From Mustelus asterias (lineage: Eukaryota): a stretch of 64,000 nt of DNA. Below the pieces are notes generated by a model that was given only the letters and a program-made list of their open reading frames with translations, made no database searches and was not told the origin of the DNA. This document shows, in pieces, positions 5,040-62,570 of the stretch (position 1 is its first letter; each line of letters starts with the position of its first letter). A program made the translations under genes and the position numbers. Where the stretch lies: assembly GCF_964213995.1 (NCBI RefSeq), contig NW_027590388.1, positions 124,001-188,000 on the forward strand, in the 5' to 3' direction.

Positions 5040-5380
5040 AATGATGGGCTGCTTTTCTCTAGAAAAGAGAAGACTGAAGGGTGACCTGATGGAAGTCTTT
5101 AAGGTTATGAAGGGGTTCAATAATCCAATAGGGATTTCAGTGAGAAACCTCTTTACCAGCGAGTGGTGAGAATGTGGAACTCACTACCACAGCGAGTGGT
5201 TGAGGTGAACAGCATGAATACATTGAAGGGGAAGCTGGATGAGGGAGGGAGAAAGAAATAGAAGGATATGCTGATGGGGGGAGATGAAGAGGGGTGGGTG
5301 GAGGCTCATGTGGAGCATAAATACTGACACAGACCAATTGAGCCGACTGGCCTGGCCCTGTGCTGTAGACTCAATGGAAC
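5040..5380 (+). mobile_element. Degenerate CR1 3' fragment holding the single ancestral 33-bp unit
   Basis: LEKRRLKGDL-like and QRVVRMWNSLPQRVVE-like translation; cagcgagtggt occurs twice, 33 bp apart (about 5157 and 5190). Confidence 0.75.
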
Positions 5381-5663
5381 AGAGACTAATGTATTTATTT
5401 TAGATCTACCTGTAGTGGTAGGAAAAACACTATTTACTGTCCAGGATAAAATAAATATCCTTCATCAGTTTTTGTGGATCATTTCAGTGGAAATGTGCCC
5501 TCGCTCAAAGAGCATCAGCCCACTGGAGGTAAAGTTGTGAGACCAGCCAGTCCAGCAGAAAGAAACCCTCCGACCCTCTCACTTCACCAACTGTCAGAAT
5601 GAACATGCTTCAGTCCTGGATGTGATTAATAGCAGCAATAACAGCAGAATTCAGCACCTGTCA

Positions 5664-6605
5664 TCACTTGTGAACTCGCCGGTGTCTCAGCAGCTTTGAT
5701 GACTGAGTGAATCCTTTCCCACAGTCAGAGCAGGTAAACAGTCTCTCCCCAGTGTGAACTCGCTGGTGTGCCCGCAGGTTGGATGAATTACTGAATCCTT
5801 TCTCACACTGAGAGCAGGTGAATGGTCTCTCTCCGGTGTGAACCCGCTGATGTGTCTGCAGGTGGGATGACTGAGTGAATGTTTTCCCACAATTTGGGCA
5901 GGTGAATGGTCTCTCCCCAGTGTGCAATCGTCGATGTTTCTGCAGATTTGATGCATAAGGGAAACGCTTCCCACACTCAGGGCAGATGAACGGCCTCTCC
6001 CCAGTGTGAACTCGCTGATGTATCAGCAGATAGGATGAATCAGTGAATCCCTTCCCACACCCGGAGCAGCTGAACGGTCTCTCCCTGGTGTGAATTCGCT
6101 GGTGTCTCTGCAGGTTGGATGAATTACTGAATCCTTTCCCACACTCAGAGCAGATGAATGGCCTCTCCCCGGTGTGAACTCGCTCGTGTGTCTGCAGGTG
6201 GGATAACTGAGTGAATCCCTTCCCACACTCTGAACACGTGAACCATTTCTCCCCGGTGTGACCTCGCTGGTGCATCAGCAAGTTGGATGATTCACTGAAT
6301 CCCTTCCCACAATCGGAGCAGGTGAATGGCTTCTCCCCGCTGTGAACTCGCTTGTGTGTCTGCAGGTGGGATGAACTTGTGAATCCTTTCCCGCACTCAG
6401 GGCAGGTGAATGGCCACTCCCCTGTGTGAACTCGTTTGTGTGTCTGCAGGGAGGATGAATGAGCAAATACCTTCCCACACTCCAAGCAAATGAACGGCCT
6501 CTCCCCAGTGTGATTACATCGATGAGTTTCCAGTTGGTGTGAGAAATTGAATCCTTTACCACAGTCTCCACATTTCCACGGCTTCTCCATGGTGCTGGTG
6601 TCCAT
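5664..6605 (-). CDS. C2H2 zinc-finger protein, 11 fingers (ZNF-2)
   Basis: Intact 313-aa [15 protein letters not shown]...HRRVHK; paralogue of 49685-50878. Confidence 0.92.
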
Positions 6606-7396
6606 GTGTCTCTCCCAGTTTGATAGTCAGCTGAAGCCTCATCCACAACAAAACACCCGAACGGTCTCACCCCAATGTGACTGGTGCTGTCTTTTCAAGC
6701 TGTGTTGGAGTTTTTTTCCACAGTCAGTTCACTGGAACGCTCTCACTCCGATCTATGTGCGTCCATGCTTTTCCAATCACATTTATGGTTGAAATCTCTT
6801 GAAGCAGAAGAACAGACAAATATTTCTCTTTGTAGATGCCAAAGGCGGATGTTGTCCAGGTCCCGATGAATGGAGTTAATCTGTCAGATCACCATGAGTA
6901 TTTGTTTTGAGATTTCTGTCTGGAAATCCTCTTCTGATATCCTGTAACACGAATTTCCAAAATTCATCACTGTCAGTGCAACTTAGAAATTCAGAAAAGA
7001 CAATTCCAATTTTTATAGAAAATTCTTTACTTTTTCCCACTATACACCCTCCCAATTCTCCTAAAGGTGCCAATTCATGTTGGTTAACCAATCTATGCTC
7101 ATCACTTCCTGTTCAAATGTGTGTAATATGCAGCACTCATTACTTGGTTGGAGATATGGTGGGTGCAGCGAGTGATCATGATCTGGAACTGGGTGCCCAC
7201 GGATCTGGTGGCATTGAAAGCAATTAAAGATTTCAAACTGAAATTGGAGGCACACTTGAAGGAAATAATCTTGCAGGAGAATGAGTAGATGGAGGGGCAA
7301 TGGGTCTGACTGGATTGCTCTATAAGGAGTTGACATGGACTCCTTCTCTATTGGAATAACGATGCCTGGAAATATATTAACATAGTTACAATGTTC

Positions 7397-30077: not shown

Positions 30078-30570
30078 TGGGAGTGTTTGATGGGGTCATA
30101 TATGTATAGAAGAGGATTTATTCTGTATCTAACTCCGTGCTGTATATTTCCTGGGGATATTTGGGGAAGAGAGTGTAAGGGGAGCTTTACTCTGTATCTA
30201 ACCTTGTGCTGTATCTGTCCTGGGAGTGTTTGATGGGGACAGTACAACGGGAGCTTTATTCTGCAACCCCGTGCTGTACCTATCTGGGAGTGTTTCATGG
30301 GGACAGTGTAGCGGGAGCTTTACTCTGTATCTAACCCCATGCTGTACCTGTCCTGTGAGTGTTTGATGGAAACAGTGTAGAGGGAACTTTTCTCTGTATC
30401 TTACTCCATGCTGTCCTGGGAATGTTTGATGGGGACAGTGTAAAAGGAGCTTTATTCTGTATCTAACCCCATGCTGTACGTGCCCTGGCAGTTTTGATGG
30501 AGTCAGTGTAGAAAGGGATTTAATCAGTATCTAACCCCGTGCTGTATGTTTCCTGGGATTGTTTGATGGC
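30078..30570. repeat. Degenerate ~69-bp tandem repeat, about 7 copies
   Basis: Consensus ctgggagtgtttgatggggacagtgtagagggagctttactctgtatctaaccccgtgctgtacctgtc; recognised as a repeat common in elasmobranch genomes. Confidence 0.85.
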
Positions 30571-36523: not shown

Positions 36524-37819
36524 CATGGATTCATGAGGGGAAAGTCGTGCTTGACGAACATGTTGGATTTTTATGAAGATGTGACTAGGGCGGTTGATGG
36601 AGGAGAACCGGTGGATGCGGTGTTTTTGGATTTCCAAAAGGCGTTTGATAAGGTGCCCCATAAAAGGCTGCTGAAGAAGATTAGGGCACACGGAGTTGGG
36701 GGTAATGTGTTAAAGTGGATTGGGGACTGGCTATCCGACAGGAAGCAAAGAGTCGGAATAAATGGGTGTTTTTCCGGTTGGAGGAAGGTAACTAGTGGCG
36801 TGCCGCAGGGATCGGTACTCGGGCCGCAACTGTTTACCATTTATATAGATGATCTGGAGGAGGGGACGGAGTGTAGGGTAACGAAGTTTGCAGACGACAC
36901 AAAGATAAGTGGAAAAGTGAATCGTGTGGAGGACGGAGAAGATCTGCAGAGAGATTTGGACAGGCTGAGTGAGTGGGCGAGGATATGGCAAATGGAGTAT
37001 AACGTTGAGAAATGCGAGGTTATACACTTTGGAGGAAATAATAACAAATGGGATTACTATCTCAATGGAAACAAATTAAAACATGCTACCGTGCAAAGGG
37101 ACCTGGGGGTCCTTGTGCATGAGACGCAAAAGCCCAGTCTGCAGGTACAACAGGTGATCAAGAAGGCAAATGGGATGTTGGCCTATATTGCGAAGGGGAT
37201 AGAATATAAAAGCAGGGATGTCTTGATGCACCTGTACAGGGCATTGGTGAGGCCGCAGCTGGAATACTGTGTGCAGTATTGGTCCCCTTATATGAGGAAG
37301 GATATATTGGCATTGGAGGGAGTGCAGAGAAGGTTCACCAGGTTGATACCGGAGATGAGGGGTTTGGATTATGAGGAGAGGCTGAGGAGATTGGGTTTGT
37401 ACTCGTTGGAGTTTAGAAGGATGAGGGGGGATCTTATGGAGACTTATAAGATAATGCGGGGGCTGGATAGGGTGGAGGCGGAGAGATTCTTTCCACTTAG
37501 TAAGGAAGTTAAAACTAGAGGACACAGCCTCAAAATAAAGGGGGGTCGGTTTAAGACAGAGTTGAGGAGGAACTTCTTCTCCCAGAGGGTGGTGAATCTC
37601 TGGAATTCTCTGTCCACTGAGGTGGTGGAGGCTACCTCGCTGAATATGTTTAAAGCGCGGATGGATGGATTCCTGATCGGTAAGGGAATTAAGGGTTATG
37701 GGGATCAGGCGGGTAAGTGGTACTGATCCACGTCAGATCAGCCATGATCTTATTGAATGGCGGGGCAGGCTCGAGGGGCTAGATGGCCTACTCCTGCTCC
37801 TATTTCTTATGTTCTTATG
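36524..37819 (+). mobile_element. Young 5'-truncated CR1 (RT region) inserted in the PLE left arm
   Basis: Open HGFMRGKSC...FADD...GKWY frame with about 8 aa differences from 18217-19420; (ttcttatg)n tail; tgtc at both junctions. Confidence 0.95.
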
Positions 37820-38708
37820 TCGTGTGTCGTGAAGGCCGCCTTGGAGAACGCTTACCTGAAGATCCAAGGCTGAATGCCCACGACTGCTGAAGTGCTCCCC
37901 CACAGGAAGAGAACAGTCTTGCCTGGTGATTGTCGAGCGGTGTTCATTCATCCGTTGTCGTAGCATCTGCATGGTTTCCCCAATGTACCATGCTTCGGGA
38001 CATCCTTTCCTGCAGCGTATCAGGTAGACAACGTTGGCCGAGTTGCAAGAGTAGGTACCGTGTACCTAGTAGGCGGTGTTCTCACGTGAGATGATGGCAT
38101 CCGCGTCGATGATCCGGCACGTCTTGCAGAGGTTGCTGTGGCAGGGTTGTGTGGTGTCGTGGTCACTGTTCTCCTGAAGGCTGGGTAGTTTGCTGCGGAC
38201 AATGGTCTGTTTGAGGTTGCGCAGTTGTTTGAAGACAAGAAGTGGGTGTGTGGGGATGGCCTTGGCGAGATGTTCGTCTTCATCAATGACACCGCTCGAC
38301 AATCACCAGGCAAGACTGTTCTCTTCCTGTGGGGGAGCATTTCAGCAGTCACGGGCATTCAGCCTCTGATCTTCAGGTAAGCGTTCTCCAAGACGGCCTT
38401 CACGACACACCACAACGCAGAGTCGCTGAGCAGAAACTGATAGCCAAGTTCCGCACACATGAGGATGGCCTAAACCGGGATGTTGGATTTACGTCACATT
38501 ATCAGTAACCCCCACAGCTTGCCTCCTGGACTTGCAGGCCGTTCTGTCTGGAGACAATACACATCTCTTTAACCTGTGCTTAATGCTCCCTCCACCCACA
38601 TTGTCTGTATCTTTAAGATCTGGCTGGCTGTCGGGATTCGCATTCTAATCAGTATTCTGTAACTTGATTTGTGTGTTTCTGTGCCCTGTTTGAGAGCACA
38701 TTTCCACT

Positions 38709-40384: not shown

Positions 40385-40705
40385 AACAGTGCGCAGGCGC
40401 AGTACCGAACATGGTCGGGAGCATGCGCGATGTCAGTGATGGCGAAGGGGAGAGAGGATCCTTTTGTCTGATCCGCAGCCGGTGAAGGTGTGGAAACGCG
40501 CAGGGCCGATGGAGTCGGCGGGTGAACGGGGAGGGTTTCTAAATACCTGCTGAAAGCCTCAAACCGCGAATACGGACCTGCAGGTTCCGCGTTTGCAGCT
40601 CCGGTTTGTCCTCCTGGGGCGAAGACCCCGGTTACCAGCCGCCATCTTAGTTCAGCGGAGGGCAGAGCGCATGCGCTGACGTCTTGGTGACGCCCATTGT
40701 CACAC
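40385..40705. promoter_or_regulatory. CpG promoter, duplicate of 1-240, with several NRF1 motifs and YY1
   Basis: tgcgcaggcgca ~40390, gcatgcgc ~40420, gccgccatctt ~40638, gcgcatgcgc ~40667. Confidence 0.7.
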
Positions 40706-41329
40706 AACAGAGAGTGGACGGGATTCAGGATTTCTGTTTTTAACTGGGTCCTAGTGCCCGAGTCACATAAAAGGATCAGTCACACTGGTCAGAACTTTCT
40801 GGTTCAGTGAGGAAGGTTCCCTTTGGTTTTGTTGATGCTTGGTTGTTGATTTTAGTCTTTCAGTTCGTTTGGACCATATGATTGGAGGGAATAAGAAAGG
40901 AAAGAATGTTCCATCCGAACTAGAATTGTCTGTTCTGAATTTCTATCCTGTATTTACACTGATAACTTCTGTAAACTCCTTTTACAGGGGATTAGGATGG
41001 GAGGATTGACAGGTGGGAAACTTAAATCAAACATCACATTGAGATCTGACAGTCATTCGATTCATCAGGACCTGAATATCAATGTGGAAGGAGAAATGTT
41101 TGTTTGTTCTGTCTGTGGGAAAAGATTTCAAACATCAGTGTGACTGGAAAAGCAGCGAGACACACACACCCGAGTGACAGCGTTCCAGTGAACTGACTGT
41201 GAAAAGAGCTTGAACCAGTTACACAGCCTGAAAAAACATCACACCATTCACAGCAGGGAGGAACCGTACATGTGCAGTGTGTGTAGTCAACTGATCATCA
41301 ACCTGGAGAGACACAAGGATACTGGCACC

Positions 41330-42713
41330 ATGGAGAAACCATGGAAATGTGAGGAACATAGAACAGTACAGCACAGAACAGGCCCTTCGGCCCACGATGT
41401 TGTGCCGAGCTTTATCTGGAACCAAGATCAAGCTGTCCCACTCCCTATCATCCTGGTGTGCTCCATGTGCCTATCCAATAACTTCTTAAATGTTTCTAAA
41501 GTGTCTGACTCCACTATCACTGCAGGCAGTCCATTCCACACCCCAACCACTCTCTGCATGAAGAACCTACCTCTGATATCCGTCCTGTATCTCCCACCAC
41601 GAACCCTATAGTTATGCCCCCTTGTAATAGCTCTATCCACCCGAGGAAATAGTCTTTGAACGTTCACTCTATCTATCCCCTTCATCATTTTATACACCTC
41701 TATTAAGTCTCCCCTCAGCCTCCTCCGCTCCAGAGAGAACAGCCCTAGCTCCCTCAACCTTTCCTCATATGACCTACCCTCCAAACCAGGCAGCATCCTG
41801 GTAAATCTCCTCTGCACTCTTTCCAGCGCTTCCACATCCTTCTTATAGTGAGGTGACCAGAACTGCACACAATATTCCAAATGTGGTCTCACCGAGGTCC
41901 TGTACAGTTGCAGCATAACCCCACGGCTCTTAAACTCCAACCCCCTGTTAATAAAAGCTAACACACTATAGGCCTTCTTCACAGCTCTATCCACTTGACT
42001 GGCCATCCCAGCTGGAAATCCATCAGCGCACTCACACTGGGGAGAGGCCATTCACCTGCTCCATGTGTGGGAAGGGATTCAGAGAGTCATCCAACCTGCT
42101 GCAACACCAGCGAGTTCACACTGACCTGAGACCTTTTAAATGCCCAGACTGCGGGAAGGGCTATAAAAGTTCTGGGGACCTGATGTCCCATCAACGTGTT
42201 CACACTGACCAGAGGCCATTCAGGTGCTTTCACTGCGGGACTGGGTTCAGGAAATCATCTGAATTCACTGTACATCAGCGCACTCACACTGGGGAGAGGC
42301 CGTTCACCTGCTCCATGTGTGGGAAGGGGTTCATTAATTCATCCAACCTGCTGAGACACCAGCGCACTCACTCTGATGCAAGAACTTTCAAATGTCCTGA
42401 CTGTGAGGAGAGCTTTAAAAACAGTGATAATCTGCTGAGACATCGACGCACTCACACTGGAGAGAGGCCGTTCACCTGCTCTGAGTGTGGGAAGGGATTC
42501 ACTCGATCAGCCGCACTGCTGACACACCGGCGAGTTCACAGCGGAGAGCGGCCATTCGCCTGCTCGGAGTGTGGGAAGAGATTTACTTATTCATCTCATC
42601 TATTGAAACACCAGCGCACTCACACTGTGGAGAGACCATTCACCTGCTCCATGTGTGGGAAGGGATTCACTCAATCTTCTAACCTGCTGACACACCAGCA
42701 AATTCACAAGTGA
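41330..42713 (+). pseudogene. Duplicate of ZNF-1 disrupted by a CR1 insertion in finger 1 (ZNF-8)
   Basis: MEKPWKCE, then the insertion at 41356-41999, then the remaining fingers nearly identical to 911-1624. Confidence 0.9.
41356..41999 (-). mobile_element. CR1 3' fragment inside a ZNF exon
   Basis: [11 protein letters not shown]...RPHLEYCVQFWSP...QRVVGVWNGLP; gttctatgtt tail; absent from the paralogue. Confidence 0.93.
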
Positions 42714-43924
42714 GTGCAGAGGTTGGAGTTCTCTGTATTGCTGCTGTTGATCACATTGAGGACTAAATGTGTGGATTAAACCTGAGGTGTGTAAGAAATG
42801 TGTCCCAGCTGCTCTTCCATGGTTCAGAGCTCCTCGGCACGGAACAGAGGCTCCTTTACAACTGTGTTTAGAGTCAGGAAGAACAACAGTGAATGCTGGA
42901 AACATGCCGTCAAATCAGAGATTGGTGTAAAACTGGGATCTGTTCCTGAGTGAGAGTGAAACAGCAGGTTTAAGTTTCCTGTCTGGAACTGATTGTGGTA
43001 ATTATGGTAATCATAGAATCCCAACAGTGCAGAAGGAGGCCATTTGGCCCATCGAGTCTGCACCGACTCTCTGTCAGAGCATCTTCCCCAGACACACCCC
43101 TCCCACGCTAGCCCCATTACCCCACGCATTTACCCCACTAATTCCCCGAACCATAACATCTTGGGACATCTATGGGGCAATTTAGCATTGGTCAATCTGC
43201 CTAACCTGTACATCTTTGGACTGTGGCAGGCAACCAGGGAGCATTTCCATGGAGATGCTGCTTCGACCCAGAGTGTAATGGTAATGCTGCTGCACTTTGA
43301 TACGACTGCTCAGACATTAGACTGTGTCAGCTCTTATTGATACTGAATAAAATCTAACCACTGTCACCAATAAGGGTTATCACTGGCAATCATTTCAGAG
43401 TTTGGGGAAAGAGAATAAAGGGCTAATGGACACCCCGAATCCCAATTCTATAGAATAAAAGGATGTTCACAATACTCTGGGCCCAAATGGTTTCTCTTCA
43501 GCTCCTCTGCACCCTGTTACTGTGACTCCACACTTTGGGCACATGGACTGAACCCCAGGGGTTCCATCACCATCTGCCCCAATCGCCCCGTCTCCTGCCC
43601 CAATTGGCTGGAGGCCCATTTCCCAGTCAGTCCTCCAGCACCTTCCTGTCTCTCTATCAGTGCAACGCCCAGGGCAGCTTCCCAATTGAGGCTCAGGCCC
43701 TGTTATTCTCAGCGAAATTCAGCTCTCAACTCCGTCACCTGGCTGTCACTAACATGAGCAACAGAGAGAGAAAGGTGCCCCAGGCTGAAATGGGAACTTG
43801 AAACTTGTGGCTCCAAACAAACTCTTCAACATTTGTGCATTCAATACCTGTTTTTGTATGAGGTTGTTATTTTGACATTGAGGCACTGGAGGCGAAGAAT
43901 AACTTTCCCTTTCCAACTTTGAAT

Positions 43925-44402
43925 TAGAACCATAGAACCATAGAAAATTACAGCTCAGAAACAGGCCTTTTGGCCCTTCTTGTCTGTGCCGAACCATTTT
44001 TTGCCTAGTCCCACTGATCTGCACTTGGACCATATCCCTCCACACCCCTCTCATCCATGAACCCGTTCCAAGTTTTTCTTAAATGTTAAAAGTGACCCTG
44101 CATTTACCACTTTATCCGGCAGCTCATTCCACACTCCCACCGCTCTCTGCGTGAAGAAGCCCCCCCTAATATTCCCTTTAAACTTTTCTCCTTTCACCCT
44201 TAACCCATGCCCTCTGGTTTTTTTCTCCCCGAGCCTCAGCGGAAAAATCCTGCTTGCCTTCACTCTATCTATACCCATCAAAATCTTATACACCTCTATC
44301 AAATCTCCCCTCAATCTTCTACGCTCCAGGGAATAAAGTCCCAACTGAATCAATCTCTCTCTGTAACTCAGTTTCTCAAGTCCCGGCAACATCCTTGTGA
44401 AC
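43925..44402 (-). mobile_element. CR1 3' fragment specific to duplicate 2
   Basis: MLPGLEKLSYRERL...TQRAVGVWNELP; (ttctatgg)n tail; empty site at ~2985. Confidence 0.88.
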
Positions 44403-44429
44403 CTGTCTATTGTCTATTGTATCAGCCAC

Positions 44430-45260
44430 AGCGCAGTGGATCCACACGCTTCCACAAGAAACTGCAAAGGGTGGTGAACGTATCCAGTCTATCTCACAAA
44501 CCAGCCTCCCATCCATTGCCTCTGTCTACACTTCCAGCTGCTTTGGAAAAACAGCCAGCATAATCACGGACCCTACACAGCCCAGACATTCTCCCTTCCA
44601 CCTTCTTCCGTTGGGAAAAAGATACAAAAGTCTGAGGACACATACCAACTGACTTCCCTGCTGCCATCAGACTTTTGAATGGACCTACCTCGTATTAAGT
44701 TGATCTTTCTCTACATTCTAGCTGTGACTGTAGCACTACATTCTGCACTCTCTCCTTTCCTTCTCTATGTATGGCATGCTTTGTATCGCGTGCAAGAAAC
44801 AATATTTTTCACTGTACACTAATACATGTGATGATAATAAATCAAATCTTCACTCCGAATCTGAAGATTGTTCTTTCCAATCCCAGTCCATTGACCTGAG
44901 GCCAACATTCAAAGTGCCAGCACTGAGGGAGTGCTGCATTATTAGAGCTGCTGCCTTTAGGATGAGATGCCAACCCAAGTACCCCATCTGCCCCTTCAAG
45001 GACATAGATGTTACCATGGATATGATTTTGAAGAAGAGCAGGGGGGGGCTATCCCCAGAGTCCTGACCAATATTTATCAATCAACATCACTACAGATCAT
45101 CTGCTCGTGATCATGTTGCTGCTTTTGGGATCTTGCTGTGTACACATTAGCTGCCACATTTCCTGCATTACAACAATGACCACACTTCAAAGCTGCTTCA
45201 TTGGTTGGAAAGTGCATTGGGACATCCTGTGGTCCTGAACGATGCTAAATGCAAGTTTTT
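44430..45260 (+). mobile_element. Rex1/Babar fragment followed by a DeuSINE-like SINE
   Basis: Duplicate of 3010-3585 with the SINE intact to its 3' end. Confidence 0.65.
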
Positions 45261-47057
45261 AATTTCAGATTTGTGTTCCCTGATCTTGATATCTGAATTT
45301 TAATTGATTTCAGCCACCCCCCAACTTGCCATTTAACAAATTCACCTTGGATCGAAGAATATTTTAACCAATTAAGGCAACAGCAGGAATCTACGGTGGG
45401 TAAATTTTAAAAATAAGTTTATTCGACAAGAAATGTTTACTTCAAACATTGGCTTTTACAGCTTGATGTGGGTGATCAGTCTGTCGAAGGTTAACCCTCT
45501 CTGGCTCCTTCTTTGACAGGAATTCTTGTGGATTTCAACCTCAGAAGTCTGGTTCCTTCTTTGACAATAATTTACCTGGAACTCGACCCTGTGAATATTC
45601 AGTACTTGGCTGGCAGGGAAGATGTTGGGAATCTCTACTTTTATCCCCAAAGTGACCATTACCTGACATCAGAGTTGGGCTGATTGTGACGTGACACTTG
45701 GTCAATTTGGTTACCAGATTAATTTAACCGGATCCCCAATTACTGACACCACCTTCTCTCATTATCTTAGACAGGAAAACAATTGCACAGTTTCATACTA
45801 ACCCTTTATCTGATTCTATACAATCAGGTATTCAGACAATTTCAAATTCTGAGACAAATCAGAGCTTGAAGGTCTCTCTTACCAGTACATTTATCATCAT
45901 TGCACATTCTTCACATACACAGCAATTCAGATGATATGTTTTTACAGCAAATAAAACTCAGCCTTTTACTATAAGCCGACTTGTGACACTAATAGATAAA
46001 CAAAAAAATGACATTCTTTATCGATTTATTAACTGTAACTCAATTAAATCTCACTACTTCTCCAGTTATTTGTTACTGACTGCGAGCTAATTAATACAGT
46101 AATCTTTAGTTAATAAACTTGGTTCCTACAAGATAGACTGGTTCAAAAAGACAGTTTGTCGAAAGACAACAGCTTTCTTCCTTACTAATCCTGACCAGAC
46201 TGAACAATTAACCTTATTCTTCAGCTGGACTTTGGAAGAATATGATATCCTGTAGCTTATCAAAATTATAAAATAATTTCTTTCTTTAAACAACTTCTGC
46301 CGGCTCTGCAGTTTCTGGAAACATTTCAGGTTATTCAGTGTTAATATTTTAAAATAAAGATCTACCCTTTATATAATTGTCTATTACACTGAGTCACTGA
46401 TGATAGCTTATTCAAGGTTCATTACTGAATAACCATATGTTACATATAAAATCAATTTGTAGCTAATAAAGCCAGTGACAGAAGGTGAACAGACTGTTAG
46501 AAGCCACATGTTCGATTTTAAAATGGTTTCCTTGACCTTGTTACTTATAGCAATGAATATGGTATGAAAGTGATTGAATTTTAAAACTAAATTTGATGAC
46601 TCAGGCCTGCAATTTCCTCCATTACAACAGTCACTACAATTCACAGAACTTCATTCACTGTATAATGTTTCAGGACAATGGCAAAGATAGATAGAGAAAC
46701 AAGGTGGTGAAAGGTTATCAGGGGGAGGTGGGAATGTGGAGTTGAGGTTTCAATTAGATCAGCCATGATTATGTTGAATGGCAGAACAGGCTCCTGATTC
46801 ACATGTTCATCTGACACCCTGTGGTTGTGAGAGGTGCTATAGAAATGCAATTTTTTTTTGTTTCCCCACAATGTTGGATAATTACACTCAGTCCCTGCAT
46901 CAAAATCATTGTTAAAGGTTGAGTCTAAATTTGACACATTTTGAATGCTGGGGTGGTTTTCTCCAAAGAGAAGACGAAGAAGTGATCTGATGGAAGTCTT
47001 TAAGATTATGAAGGGGTTCAATAATCCAACGGGGATTTAATGAGAAACCTCTTTACC

Positions 47058-49246
47058 CAGCGAGTGGTGAGACTGTGGAACTCACTATCACAGCGAGTGG
47101 TGAGACTGTGGAACTCACTATCACAGCGAGTAGTGAGACTGTGGAACTCACTATCACAGCGAGTGGTGAGACTGTGGAACTCACTATCACAGCGAGTGGT
47201 GAGACTGTGGAACTCACTATCACAGCGAGTGGTGAGACTGTGGAACTCACTATCACAGCGAGTGGTGAAACTGTAGAACTCATGACCACAGCGAGTGGTG
47301 AGAATGTGGAACTCACCATCACAGCGAGTGGTGAGAATGTGGAACTCACCATCACAGCGAGTGGTGAGAATGTGGAACTCACCATCACAGCGAGTGGTGA
47401 GAATGTGGAACTCACTGTCACAGCGAGTGATGAGAATGTGGAACTCACCATCACAGCGAGTGGTGAGACTGTGGAACTCACTATCACAGCGAGTGGTGAG
47501 AATGTGGAACTCACTATCACAGCGAGTGGTGAGAATGTGGAACTCACTATCACAGCGAGTGGTGAGACTGTAGAACTCATGACCACAGCGAGTGGTGAGA
47601 ATGTGGAACTCACCATCACAGCGAGTGGTGAGAATGTGGAACTCACTATCACAGCGAGTGGTGAGACTGTAGAACTCATGACCACAGCGAGTGGTGAGAC
47701 TGTGGAACTCACTATCACAGTGAGTGGTGAGACTGTGGAACTCACTATCACAGCGAGTGGTGAGACTGTGGAACTCACTATCACAGCGAGTGGTGAGACT
47801 GTGGAACTCACTATCACAGCGAGTAGTGAGACTGTGGAACTCACTATCACAGTGAGTGGTGAGACTGTGGAACTCACTATCACAGCGAGTGGTGAGACTG
47901 TGGAACTCACTATCACAGCGAGTGGTGAGACTGTGGAACTCACTATCACAGCGAGTGGTGAGACTGTAGAACTCATGACCACAGCGAGTGGTGAGAATGT
48001 GGAACTCACCATCACAGCGAGTGGTGGGAATGTGGAACTCACCATCACAGCGAGTGGTGAGAATGTGGAACTCACCATCACAGCGAGTGGTGAGAATGTG
48101 GAACTCACTATCACAGCGAGTGGTGAGACTGTAGAACTCATGACCACAGCGAGTGGTGAGAATGTGGAACTCACCATCACAGCGAGTGGTGAGAATGTGG
48201 AACTCACTATCACAGCGAGTGGTGAGACTGTAGAACTCATGACCACAGCGAGTGGTGAGAATGTGGAACTCACTGTCACAGCGAGTGATGAGAATGTGGA
48301 ACTCACCATCACAGCGAGTGGTGAGACTGTGGAACTCACTATCACAGCGAGTGGTGAGAATGTGGAACTCACTATCACAGTGAGTGGTGAGACTGTGGAA
48401 CTCACTATCACAGCGAGTGGTGAGACTGTGGAACTCATGACCACAGCGAGTGGTGAGAATGTGGAACTCACCATCACAGCGAGTGGTGAGAATGTGGAAC
48501 TCACTATCACAGCGAGTGATGAGACTGTAGAACTCATGACCACAGCGAGTGGTGAGACTGTGGAACTCACTATCACAGTGAGTGGTGAGACTGTGGAACT
48601 CACTATCACAGCGAGTGGTGAGACTGTGGAACTCACTATCACAGCGAGTAGTGAGACTGTGGAACTCACTATCACAGCGAGTAGTGAGACTGTGGAACTC
48701 ACTATCACAGCGAGTGGTGAGACTGTGGAACTCACTATCACAGCGAGTGGTGAGAATGTGGAACTCACTATCACAGCGAGTGGTGAGACTGTGGAACTCA
48801 TGACCACAGCGAGTGGTGAGACTGTAGAACTCATGACCACAGCGAGTGGTGAGAATGTGGAACTCACTATCACAGCGAGTGGTGAGACTGTGGAACTCAC
48901 TATCACAGCGAGTGGTGAGACTGTGGAACTCATGACCACAGCGAGTGGTGAGACTGTAGAACTCATGACCACAGCGAGTGGTGAGAATGTGGAACTCACC
49001 ATCACAGCGAGTGGTGAGAATGTGGAACTCACCATCACAGCGAGTGGTGAGAATGTGGAACTCACCATCACAGCGAGTGGTGAGACTGTGGAACTCACCA
49101 TCACAGCGAGTGGTGAGAATGTGGAACTCACCATCACAGCGAGTGGTGAGAATGTGGAACTCACCATCACAGCGAGTGGTGAGACTGTGGAACTCACTAT
49201 CACAGCGAGTGGTGAGAATGTGGAACTCACTGTCACAGCGAGTGGT
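47058..49246. repeat. CR1-derived 33-bp minisatellite, 66 units plus 11 bp
   Basis: cagcgagtggtgagactgtggaactcactatca and variants; first cagcgagtggt at 47058, last at 49236 (2178 = 66x33); embedded in the CR1 fragment 46945-49430. Confidence 0.98.
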
Positions 49247-49684
49247 TGAGGTGAACAGCGTGAATACATTGAAGGGGAAGCGAGATACATACATGAGGGA
49301 GAAAGGAATAGAAGGATATGCTGATGGGGGGAGATGAAGAGGGGTGGGTGGAAACTTATGTGGAGTATAAATAGTGACACAGACTGATTGAGCCGACTGG
49401 CCTGGCCCTGTGCTGTCGACTCAATGGAACAGAGACAAATGTATTTTAGATCTACCTGGAGTGCTATTAAAAGCACTATTTACTATCCAAGATAAAATAA
49501 ATGTCCTTCATCAGCTTTTGTGGGTCATTTCAGTAGAAATGTGCTCTCCCAGGCTCAAAGTGCATCAACCCACTGGAATCAACATCGAGAGACCAGCCAG
49601 TCCAACAGAAAGAAACTTCACCAAAATGATTCAGTCCTGGACATGATGAACAGCAGCAATAACAGCAGAATCCAACCCCTGTCA

Positions 49685-50878
49685 TCATTTGTGAACTTGC
49701 TGATGTCTCAGCAGCTGTGATGACTGAGTGAATACCTTCCCGCACACAGAGCAGGTAAACTGTTTCTTCCCAGTGTGAACCCGTTGGTGTGCCCACAGGT
49801 TGGATGAATTACTGAATCCCTTCCCACACTGAGAGCAGGTGAATGGTCTCTCTCCAGTGTGAACTCGCTGGTGTGTCTGCAGGTGGGATGACTGAGTAAA
49901 TGCTTTCCCACAATCAGAGCAAGTGAATGGTCTCTCCCCAGTGTGCACTCGTCGGTGTTTCTGCAGATTGGATGCATCTGGGAATCCCTTCCCACAATCG
50001 GGGCAGGTGAACGGTCTCTCCCCAGTGTGAACTCGCTGGTGTATCAACAGATGCGATGAATCAGTGAATCCCCTCCCACATTCGGGGCAGGTGAATGGCC
50101 TCTCCCCAGTGTGAATTCGCTGGTGCATCAACAGATGGGATGAGCGACTAAATCCCTTCCCACAGGTAGAGCAGGTGAATGGTTTCTCTCCAGTGTGAAC
50201 TCGTTGGTGCATCAGCAGACTGAATGAATCACTGAATCTCATCCCACACATTGAGCAGGGGAATGGTCTCTCTCTGGTATGAACCCTCTGGTGCATCAGC
50301 AGGTTGGATGAATCAGTAAATCCCTTCCCACACTCGGAGCAGGCGAACGGCCTCTCCCCAGTGTGAACTCGCTGGTGCCTCAACAGGTTGGATGAATCAC
50401 TGAATGCCTTCCCACACTCAGAGCAGCTGAATGGTCTCTCCCCGGTGTGAATGCGCTCGTGTGACTGGAGGTGGGATAACTGAGTGAATTCCTTCCCGCA
50501 CTCCGAGCAGGTGAACCGCCTCTCCCTGGTGTGAACTCGCTGGTGCATCAACAGGTTGGATGAATCACTGAATCCCTTTCCACAATCGGAGCAGGTGAAT
50601 GGCCTCTCCCCAGTGTGAACTCGCTTGTGTGTCTGCAGGTGGGATGAACTTGTGAATCCTTTCCCACACTCAGGGCAGGTGAATCGCCTCTCCCCTGTGT
50701 GAACTCGTTTGTGTGTCTGCAGGGAGGATGAATGAGCGAATCCCTTCCCACACTCCAAGCAAGTGAACGGCCTCTCCCCAGTGTGACTGCGTCGATGAGT
50801 TTCCAGCTGATATGGGAAATTGAATCCTTTACCACAGTCTCCACATTTCCATGGTTTCTCCATGGTGTAGGTGTCCAT
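49685..50878 (-). CDS. C2H2 zinc-finger protein, 14 fingers (ZNF-9)
   Basis: Intact 397-aa ORF; paralogue of ZNF-2 with three extra fingers. Confidence 0.92.
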
Positions 50879-51699
50879 GTGTCTCTCCCAGTTTGACAGT
50901 CAGTTGAAGCCTTGTCCATACATAAAAAACCTGAATAGTGACTAGTGATGTCTTTTCAAGCTGTGTAACTGGTTGAAGCTTTATTCCACAGTCAGTGCAC
51001 AGGAACACCCACTCATGTCTGTGTCTCCACGTTTTCCAATCACACTTATGGTTGAAATCTCTTGAAGCAGACAGAACAGAGAAATATTTCTCTTTATAGA
51101 TTCCAAAGGCTGATGTTGTTCAGGTCCCGATTTATCAAGTTAATCTGGCAGATCACCACGAGTATTTGTTTTGAGAAGTCCAATTCTGATATTCTGTAAA
51201 ATGAGTTCCAAAATTCATCACTGTCAGTGCAACTTAGAAATTCAGAAAAGACAATTCTAGTTTTTATAGAAAATTCTTTACTTTCTCCCGCCATTCTTAC
51301 CCTGCATCTAATACACATCATAGAACAACACTCGACATATCCCTGTCCTGTATTAATTTACTGTCTCCTTAATATCAGCTATCTCCTGGGGATCCACCCC
51401 TTTAATTGTGACCATTACGAATATAGACCATCCTTTTAGCCAGACAAATAAATGTATTAAGCTGAGGGAGCTAAAGAATGTTAATGTCTTTAAAAGAGAA
51501 AGACTTGGGGCAACCTTTCCAGAGTCTGCAGCCTCCCTGGATTCACTTCCTTTCCCTTCAGTTGCTGCAAGTCCCCAATTTCCCCCAGAATGAGAAAAGA
51601 AATGGAAAGGGGGTTGAAAAGAAAGTGTTTTACTCACAGATGTCGGAGACAGGAGGACGTTTCTGTCTGCATGAAGCTCAATCTGCATTGTCACAAAGA

Positions 51700-62019: not shown

Positions 62020-62570
62020 GGCAGGGAGCACTGCGCATGCGCACTGTTGCAACCTCATGCGATCAAGAGGCAGCCTTGACCCCAGGTCTGTCATCAAAAA
62101 ACTCGCAGCTTCTCTTCCTGAAAACACGGAACCGATAGCTTCTTATTCGGATCGTGAATCCTCCAGAAGGTGTTAATGGAACCTCCCAGTCCACTCACCG
62201 GCTCTGTTCCTCTCCTGTCCGGGCCTCATGTCTCCCTGCGGATTCCACACCACTGTCTGCATCCGCACTGCGCATGCTCCAGTCACAGCCCCGCACAGAG
62301 CCTGCGCAGCGGGCTCCGGCAGAGGTTAGGGCCCCGCCCCTCATTCACTCCTATTGGTTGGAAGACCAGCCGCTCCAGCTCGGTCCTCCAGCCCCGCCCC
62401 TCATTCACTCCGATTGGTTGGAGGACCAGCCGCTCCAGCTCGGTCCTCCAGCCCCGCCTCTCATTCACTCCGATTGGTTGGAGGACCAGCCGCTCCCGCT
62501 CGGTCCTCCAGCCCCGCCCCCTCACATTGTTCCGGAATCTCACTCCGCCGCTTCCGCCTTCACCCCCAGC
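62020..62570 (+). promoter_or_regulatory. CpG promoter of ZNF-12 with NRF1, Sp1 and CCAAT motifs
   Basis: tgcgcatgcgca ~62032; actgcgcatgctc ~62268; four gccccgcc boxes and three attgg boxes. Confidence 0.7.
62331..62524. repeat. 60-bp tandem repeat x3 plus a partial (GC box and CCAAT box)
   Basis: gccccgcccctcattcactccgattggttggaggaccagccgctccagctcggtcctcca at 62331, 62391, 62451; partial at 62511. Confidence 0.95.

What the first reader, a model, noticed from the sequence alone, without database searches (positions are those of the whole stretch)
47058..49246. Birth of a minisatellite caught by duplication: 1 unit to 66 units from a CR1 coding segment
Seen: the paralogue at 5157-5200 has one 33-bp unit between two cagcgagtggt 11-mers. 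Here the same flanks enclose exactly 66 units with no length variants. The unit is the CR1 ORF2 motif SQRVVRLWNSL. Inference: the 11-bp internal repeat seeded slippage or unequal exchange after the duplication, giving 2.2 kb of new sequence ~440 bp downstream of an intact ZNF. A rare case with ancestral state, seed and product all in view.
Basis: partly seen in the sequence, partly recalled or inferred. Interest (0 to 1): 0.7.

Follow-up and report, generated by a model that had tools for sequence, protein, structure and literature searches.

The report
Minisatellite grown from dead CR1 LINE
A 33-base piece of a dead jumping gene sits 66 times head to tail beside a zinc-finger gene, and sister gene copies in the same genome hold it 1, 2, 3, 10, 11, 13 or 67-68 times, so this is likely a known kind of slip-born repeat whose growth steps are unusually well preserved.

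Summary
Real, and a known kind. The array is exactly 66 x 33 + 11 bp in 13 unit types. Its unit is the ORF2 C-terminal segment of a CR1-like LINE remnant behind a family of about 150 ZNF genes. Paralogues in G000 hold 1 (most), 2, 3, 10, 11, 11, 13, 66, 67, 67 or 68 units; multi-unit copies arose or reverted repeatedly (AU p=0.0004). The same 33-mer is also expanded in 5 of 70 LINE copies sampled without regard to arrays, and up to 481 units elsewhere, so it is a recurrent hotspot, not a rare event. Corrections: the 5157 copy is a distant paralogue, not the sister. Its perfect 11-mer is derived (the LINE has a 10/11 match) and not sufficient, since most copies carrying it never grew. Lead: all eight arrays of 10 or more units lie in one 14-copy subclade that lost the ZNF's conserved AATAAA, so the array may lie in a read-through 3' UTR (one event; no RNA test). 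The scan noted the 67-unit duplicate before (e1-9810475). Mechanism: direct-repeat-seeded duplication (Haber-Louis), then in-register gain and loss.

The parts
47058..49246 (+). Minisatellite, 66 x 33-bp units plus a terminal 11-mer; 13 unit types
46944..47057 (+). Left remnant of LINE ORF2 C-terminus (RRRRSDLMEVFKIMKGF...NLFT), internally deleted; start approximate
49247..49435 (+). Rest of LINE ORF2 (VVEVNSVNTLKGKRDTYMREKGIEGY..., stop about 49337) and LINE 3' UTR with decayed terminal hairpin and tail; end approximate
49440..49449 (-). Site where a 4-bp deletion removed the ZNF-strand AATAAA kept by most cassette copies; AATACA remains (49445), AGTAAA at 49484
47036..47041 (-). First ATTAAA on the ZNF strand beyond the array (candidate distal poly(A) signal, untested)
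46025..46030 (-). First AATAAA on the ZNF strand downstream of the stop codon in this copy
49685..50899 (-). C2H2 zinc-finger frame, 404 aa stop to stop, 14 fingers
5157..5200 (+). Single-unit seed (11-mer, 22 bp, 11-mer) in the distant paralogue
5394..5399 (-). AATAAA on the ZNF strand, intact in the single-unit paralogue
5664..6626 (-). Paralogous ZNF frame, 320 aa, about 11 fingers (ends approximate)
40468..51289 (+). Duplicated block matching window 1 to about 7040 (83-97% by piece)

Best explanation
This is a non-coding minisatellite made of a 33-bp piece of a dead CR1-like LINE behind a zinc-finger gene, likely born in place when two 11-bp direct repeats 33 bp apart mispaired and duplicated the piece, and likely grown stepwise by whole-unit gains and losses. 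Shown: the LINE remnant was copied along with the 3' end of about 150 ZNF genes; these hold 1, 2, 3, 10-13 or 66-68 units; the same segment is expanded in many unrelated LINE copies. Inferred: (1) the seed went from the LINE's 10/11 match to a perfect match by copying of the right 11-mer onto the left; (2) doublets arose several times; (3) one lineage reached 10 or more units once and later about 66; (4) replication slippage or unequal exchange/conversion does the work, which sequence alone cannot separate. It is most likely a neutral passenger.
For: Whole units plus one terminal 11-mer, with LINE sequence continuing in register on both sides. Homology to the ORF2 C-terminus of RT+endonuclease LINEs, E 3e-13 and 3e-10. 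27 close cassettes: 19 single (L037 read by eye), 8 with 10-68 units; 13 doublets and 2 triplets in other ZNF subfamilies. Exact junction counts in G000 equal the known loci (71 of 71, 118 of 118). Multi-unit copies are not one clade (p-AU 0.00036, at least 4 changes); the 8 long arrays may be one (p-AU 0.35) and all carry A16C and C31T. The four 66-68 arrays share unit order, differ by whole units and hybrid units, and differ at 1-2 of 3000 flank bases from the window copy. L062 keeps the left LINE-type 11-mer and the right cassette-type one. 5 of 70 LINE copies picked by an upstream anchor carry arrays at this segment; array-bearing copies are no more alike in their flanks (74.2%) than single copies (73.9%). 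A short-read contig of run X3 holds an array-specific D unit in tandem context.
Against: No long read spanning the array and no outgroup genome could be examined. Paralogue trees are blurred by conversion: doublet L176, outside the subclade, carries the array variants A16C, C31T and C4T. The branching of the three groups in the 14-copy subclade is unresolved, so one versus two origins of long arrays is open. Dispersed array units resemble each other (87%) more than their flanks do (74%), which needs selection for certain seed variants, conversion between loci, or my ascertainment by pattern. CR1 clade membership was not tested by phylogeny.
Confidence: 0.85

Rival explanations
1. Birth and death: the six single-unit copies inside the array subclade are collapsed arrays, and perfect-11-mer singles in general (5157 included) are left over from short-lived doublets. 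The single state seen is then partly secondary. This is compatible with the best explanation and changes only the direction for some copies.
For: Sisters L022 and L026 differ at 3 of 44 seed bases against 0.9% in flanks (P=0.008, pair chosen after viewing), all at array-variant sites. A16C occurs in 2 of 138 terminal or single units, one being L026. Both 11-mers changed to C from different bases (A and G), which suggests templating.
Against: The second A16C case, doublet L176, lies outside the subclade and holds the same unit as L026, so seed-limited gene conversion between paralogues explains the pattern too. The tree does not nest the six singles inside the arrays.
Confidence: 0.4
2. Loss of the ZNF's proximal poly(A) signal let transcription run through the seed, and that let doublets grow to 10 or more units; the array now lies in the ZNF 3' UTR.
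For: AATAAA or ATTAAA about 197 bp from the seed is kept at 84 exact sites, in 11 of 12 outer close paralogues (the twelfth has an interrupted flank) and in all 15 doublets and triplets. It is deleted in all 14 copies of the subclade that holds all 8 long arrays. The next ATTAAA lies 17 bp beyond the array. PMC13167724 (passage) mentions elevated transcription as a driver of repeat expansion in a bacterium.
Against: One deletion and probably one growth event, so shared ancestry explains the link fully. Six of the 14 signal-less copies have one unit. AATACA and AGTAAA remain upstream of the array. Dispersed arrays grew with no ZNF nearby in the loci viewed (not tested systematically).
Confidence: 0.15
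3. The arrays were spread ready-made, by retrotransposition of an array-bearing LINE or by ectopic conversion from arrays elsewhere, and this array was imported.
For: Consensus units of unrelated dispersed arrays converge (GGGGAG in the first unit of 5 of 5 unbiased arrays against 7 of 65 other copies, P=7e-5, post hoc); C13 and C17 arrays share C31T with this one.
Against: This array keeps the cassette-specific C at position 4 (62 of 66 units; the other 4 have T), seen in none of the 28 dispersed consensus units. Flanks of array-bearing LINE copies are as diverged as those of single copies. Short intermediates exist in the cassette family.
Confidence: 0.07
4. Assembly artefact: the array length or the four near-identical copies are products of assembly.
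For: The cassettes lie on unplaced, highly duplicated contigs; some copies may be alternate haplotypes; no spanning read was seen.
Against: 13 unit types in a non-periodic order repeated across four loci with distinct whole-unit differences; two copies lie 136 kb apart on one contig; array-type tandem junctions stand in independent short-read contigs.
Confidence: 0.03
5. The array is a coding repeat or a selected regulatory element.
For: Three of six frames are open across the array, 745-808 codons; it lies next to an intact ZNF frame.
Against: A 33-bp unit keeps frames open by arithmetic; the LINE frame has 25 stops; most paralogues lack the array; unit number ranges from 1 to 68 among near relatives.
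Confidence: 0.04

Closest known systems
Haber-Louis model of minisatellite origin; Alu-derived minisatellites (Jurka and Gentles 2006). Originals not read; seen as summarised in PMC3389668 (parts 1-3 of 4 read) and PMC6947457 (passages)
   Same: A TE segment flanked by short direct repeats is duplicated and then amplified; PMC3389668 counts 7,276 TE-derived human tandem repeats, 300 with 5-20 bp direct repeats, TE-internal hotspots, and multilocus families with fewer loci at higher unit counts.
   Different: Here the source is the coding 3' end of a CR1-like LINE in a shark-like genome, the seed is 11 bp, and intermediates survive as paralogues within one genome.
SINE-derived satellites (sSats) of squamates, PMC10702118 (abstract, passages and Discussion read)
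   Same: Many loci with tandem copies of one internal segment of a retroelement, element sequence at the ends, up to hundreds of units, similar units between loci, subtelomeric bias.
   Different: Source is a LINE ORF2, and this locus lies in a ZNF cluster. Subtelomeric bias was not significant in my unbiased sample (4 of 35 against 0 of 34, P=0.11).
Microhomology-mediated tandem duplication (MTD), PMC13167724 (passages)
   Same: Single-copy segments between microhomology arms duplicate reversibly; few go beyond two copies.
   Different: The passages seen concern yeast, bacteria and human data; here one lineage went on to 66-68 units.
Mouse MaLR- and B1-derived minisatellites (Kelly 1994; Bois 1998), human MsH42 (Boan et al.), chicken CR1-containing HinfI repeat; seen only as cited in PMC9659126 and PMC7767330 (passages)
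   Same: Minisatellites expanded from retroelement segments, or with a birth traced through orthologues.
   Different: HinfI embeds a CR1 piece in a larger tandem unit; MsH42 was traced across species, not paralogues.

Membership tests
Direct-repeat-seeded (Haber-Louis) minisatellite | Head-to-tail units of 10-100 bp | tested here: met
   66 x 33 bp, no indels
Direct-repeat-seeded (Haber-Louis) minisatellite | Pre-expansion state has one unit between short direct repeats; array ends in the partial repeat | tested here: met
   11-mer at both ends of the array and of single copies; 10/11 match in the LINE majority
Direct-repeat-seeded (Haber-Louis) minisatellite | Change by whole units in register | tested here: met
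   66/67/67/68 differ by whole and hybrid units; 1, 2, 3, 10, 11, 13 in paralogues
VNTR | Allelic length variation between individuals | not testable with these tools
   Only short-read contigs were served
TE-derived multilocus tandem repeat | Unit matches an internal TE segment, TE sequence flanks the array | tested here: met
TE-derived multilocus tandem repeat | Same segment expanded at unrelated loci | tested here: met
   5 of 70 anchor-picked copies; 28 dispersed runs tabulated
CR1 LINE | ORF2 with endonuclease and reverse transcriptase | tested here: inconclusive
   The remnant holds only the ORF2 C-terminus; it aligns to neighbours with RVT_1 and endonuclease domains
CR1 LINE | 3' hairpin and ATTCTRTG-type tail (the tail as a CR1 mark is recalled; PMC5381603 lists it only as a non-LTR tail) | tested here: inconclusive
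   Hairpin motif in 20 of 65 old copies, tail-like 8-mer after it in 12 of those (loose match, no control); decayed in the window
CR1 LINE | RT phylogeny places it in CR1, not L2 | not tested
   No reference RT set was available
G-quadruplex-type unstable minisatellite (CEB1/CEB25, recalled) | Four G-runs per motif | tested here: not met
   0 motifs in this array; 5-10 per 500 bp in the five unbiased dispersed arrays

The most novel reading that the evidence does not exclude
Loss of a zinc-finger gene's poly(A) signal opened a dormant LINE seed to read-through transcription and so released it from the reversible 1-2-3 unit stage into a 2.2-kb array inside the mRNA's 3' UTR, while sister copies collapsed back to one unit: a whole minisatellite life cycle, with its trigger, readable from paralogues in one genome.
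Probability: 0.12. Interest if true: 0.62.

Novelty: new member of a known kind. Interest (0 to 1): 0.33.

Why it matters
The mechanism is described, so the locus is no surprise. Its value is as a natural experiment: about 150 copies of one seed in one genome, of which 15 reached 2-3 units and 8 reached 10-68, plus many independent expansions in dispersed LINE copies. That allows a direct test of an open point: why a few seed duplications run on into long arrays while most stay at one or two units. Two candidate triggers fall out: read-through after poly(A)-signal loss (this locus) and G-rich seed variants (dispersed arrays). Seven literature searches listed no paper on this CR1-derived family in sharks or rays; the library lacks most subscription journals, and supplements and repeat databases were not searched.

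Tried and rejected
Hairpin-driven variants: the single seed folds only mildly (z -1.7 and -2.2; type A about 0), and 12 observed unit variants do not stabilise folding more than class-matched changes (P=0.34); rejected for this array. G-quadruplex: none here. Coding use of the LINE frame: 25 stops. Subtelomeric enrichment of arrays among anchor-picked copies: not significant. Young array-bearing master LINE: flanks no more alike than background. Expression: no RNA holder listed, so no test. Spanning reads: only short-read contigs were served, none spanning; samples S1-S3 belong to one study and may be one animal. Protein Atlas gave no answer. Look-ups of earlier findings by sequence, by words and nearby found nothing. 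Rows dropped: 4 of 74 anchor matches were not fetched; 28 of the 70 had no recognisable core; L037, L038, L068 and L176 are not in the 40-row tree; the three C25 runs are not.

Full report
Observation. The stretch 47058-49246 is 2189 bp, exactly 66 units of 33 bp plus the 11-mer CAGCGAGTGGT, in 13 unit types and a non-periodic order. The unit core occurs 67 times in the window against 0.01 by chance. The 67th is the single unit at 5157-5200, whose flanks match at 90.4% and 82.6%. An open 404-aa, 14-finger C2H2 frame ends on the minus strand at 49685, 438 bp away.

Source. The unit and both flanks translate as the C-terminus of a LINE ORF2. A paralogous 78-aa piece and the window's own 44-aa piece align to the ends of two neighbouring LINE frames that carry RVT_1 (one also an endonuclease domain), E 3e-13 and 3e-10. 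Old copies of the subfamily show a 3' hairpin in 20 of 65 cases and a loosely matched ATTCTRTG-like tail in 12 of those. I call it CR1-like; the CR1 label rests on recalled features and was not tested with an RT tree. The LINE frame has 25 stops across the array, so nothing of ORF2 is made. That the host is a shark or ray is recalled from its repeats and stated in earlier notes of the scan.

Paralogue series. The left flank finds 27 close cassettes in G000. Nineteen hold one unit and eight hold 10, 11, 11, 13, 66, 67, 67 and 68. More distant ZNF subfamilies share only the LINE remnant and the ZNF 3' end; among them are 13 doublets and 2 triplets. At least 138 cassette ends match two exact patterns, so the family has roughly 150 members. 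Two exact junction patterns give 71 and 118 matches in the genome, the same as the sums over known loci, so no further long array of these unit types is hidden. Multi-unit copies do not form one clade (p-AU 0.00036; at least 4 changes; 40 rows). The eight long arrays all lie in a starred 14-copy subclade, may be one clade (p-AU 0.35) and share variants A16C and C31T. The 13-unit copy is nearest to the 66-68 group (1.2% flank difference; branch not starred). The 5157 copy is outside this subclade (15% difference over 2803 columns including the ZNF). It shows the ancestral layout but is not the sister. The four long copies differ from the window copy at 1-2 of 3000 flank bases, yet show at least four whole-unit gains or losses, two leaving hybrid units (my reading).

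Seed. In 65 dispersed non-array LINE copies the left 11-mer has A at position 4 (40 of 65) and the right has G (38 of 65); C occurs once and never. The cassette has C in both, and L062 keeps A left and C right. The perfect repeat is therefore derived, probably by templating from right to left. It is not sufficient, since most cassettes with it have one unit. It is not required either, since dispersed arrays grew from the imperfect seed. It does mark this array as home-grown: 62 of 66 units keep that C and none of 28 dispersed consensus units has it.

Hotspot. A tandem-junction pattern gives 298 matches in G000. Fetched loci show arrays of 5 to 481 units on 12 large contigs and three others, mostly with LINE sequence in register on one or both sides. 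To avoid picking by the array, I anchored on a LINE motif upstream: 5 of 70 copies examined (of 74 matches) carry arrays at this segment, and I saw no array made from another part of the LINE remnant (read by eye). Right flanks of array-bearing copies are 74.2% alike, against 73.8% to single copies and 73.9% among singles, which argues for separate births in old insertions. Their units are more alike (87%) and share G-rich variants; selection of seeds, conversion and ascertainment could each contribute. Tandem junctions of this segment also appear in contigs of three samples of organism A and one of organism B.

Independent data. No long read was available. A short-read contig of run X3 passes through a D-type unit, seen only in the 66-68 arrays, between two 11-mers. 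This is independent of the assembly but perhaps not of the animal.

Two leads, with what stands against them. First, collapse: L022 and L026 are sisters that differ at three seed positions, all array-variant sites (P=0.008, post hoc), and A16C is found in 2 of 138 single or terminal units. But the second case, L176, lies outside the subclade, so conversion between paralogues is an equal rival. Second, poly(A) loss: an AATAAA or ATTAAA on the ZNF strand stands at 84 exact sites, in 11 of 12 outer close paralogues and in all 15 doublets and triplets. It is deleted in all 14 subclade copies, and the next ATTAAA lies 17 bp beyond the array. The array may thus be in the 3' UTR. This is a single event, six signal-less copies have one unit, weaker signals remain, and no RNA could be laid.

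Mechanism. Most likely two 11-bp repeats 33 bp apart mispair, giving a reversible doublet; longer homology then allows further in-register gains and losses. The anatomy and the series are shown; slippage versus unequal exchange or conversion is inferred. Hairpin and quadruplex explanations failed for this array.

Known systems. The direct-repeat model and TE-derived, multilocus minisatellites with internal hotspots are described in PMC3389668 (parts 1-3 of 4 read) and PMC6947457 (passages). Squamate SINE-derived satellites are a close parallel (PMC10702118; abstract, passages, Discussion). Reversible microhomology duplication is in PMC13167724 (passages). Traced births (MsH42) and CR1-containing or B1/MaLR-derived repeats were seen only as cited. 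Searches listed no paper on this family; no supplements were read. The scan reported the 67-unit duplicate of this locus earlier with the same basic reading (e1-9810475); I had reached mine before seeing it.

Verdict. A real, well-preserved new member of a known kind. Interest 0.33: ordinary mechanism, unusually complete series, one testable lead.

Noticed in passing
window 49440-49449 and 5394-5399; G000-wide: The ZNF family keeps a poly(A)-signal-like AATAAA (ATTAAA in some) just past the LINE remnant at 84 exact sites; a 4-bp deletion removes it in one 14-copy subclade.
   Followed up: partly
G000 C75:3538500-3568200 and C79:196600-212000 (L060, L165-L170): Giant arrays of the same LINE 33-mer, with 35-bp variants: 481 + 248 units split by an insertion, and 463 units (15-17 kb per run).
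   Followed up: partly
L071, L072, L092, L125, L140: All five anchor-picked dispersed arrays share GGGGAG and CTCCC variants that create G-runs and quadruplex-like motifs; cause or consequence of expansion unknown.
   Followed up: partly
L113, L127, L128, L139: A second multilocus repeat with a 52-bp unit (2-10 copies) at four unrelated loci; looks SINE-derived (recalled).
   Followed up: no
window 16988-17658: 95-bp x 7.1 array at 97% identity at the 5' edge of a ZNF exon; other ZNF copies in the window match its flank and unit at 68-80%.
   Followed up: no
window 12369-12606, 12717-13012, 30117-30569, 62331-62520: Four more minisatellites (38 x 6.3, 18 x 16.3, 69 x 6.7, 60 x 3.2); this ZNF cluster is rich in them.
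   Followed up: no
window 18123-19419 and 36524-37820: A 1.3-kb inverted repeat pair at 99.1% identity, probably two young copies of one element.
   Followed up: no
window 47055-47057 and paralogues: The C run before the seed (CC or CCC) changes repeatedly across the paralogue tree, including between array-bearing sisters.
   Followed up: no
L176 (G000 C123:237292): A doublet outside the array subclade holds two array-type units, a sign of seed-limited conversion between ZNF paralogues.
   Followed up: partly
G000 C356: The window's ZNF pair is repeated about 136 kb further along the same contig, there with 67 units.
   Followed up: partly
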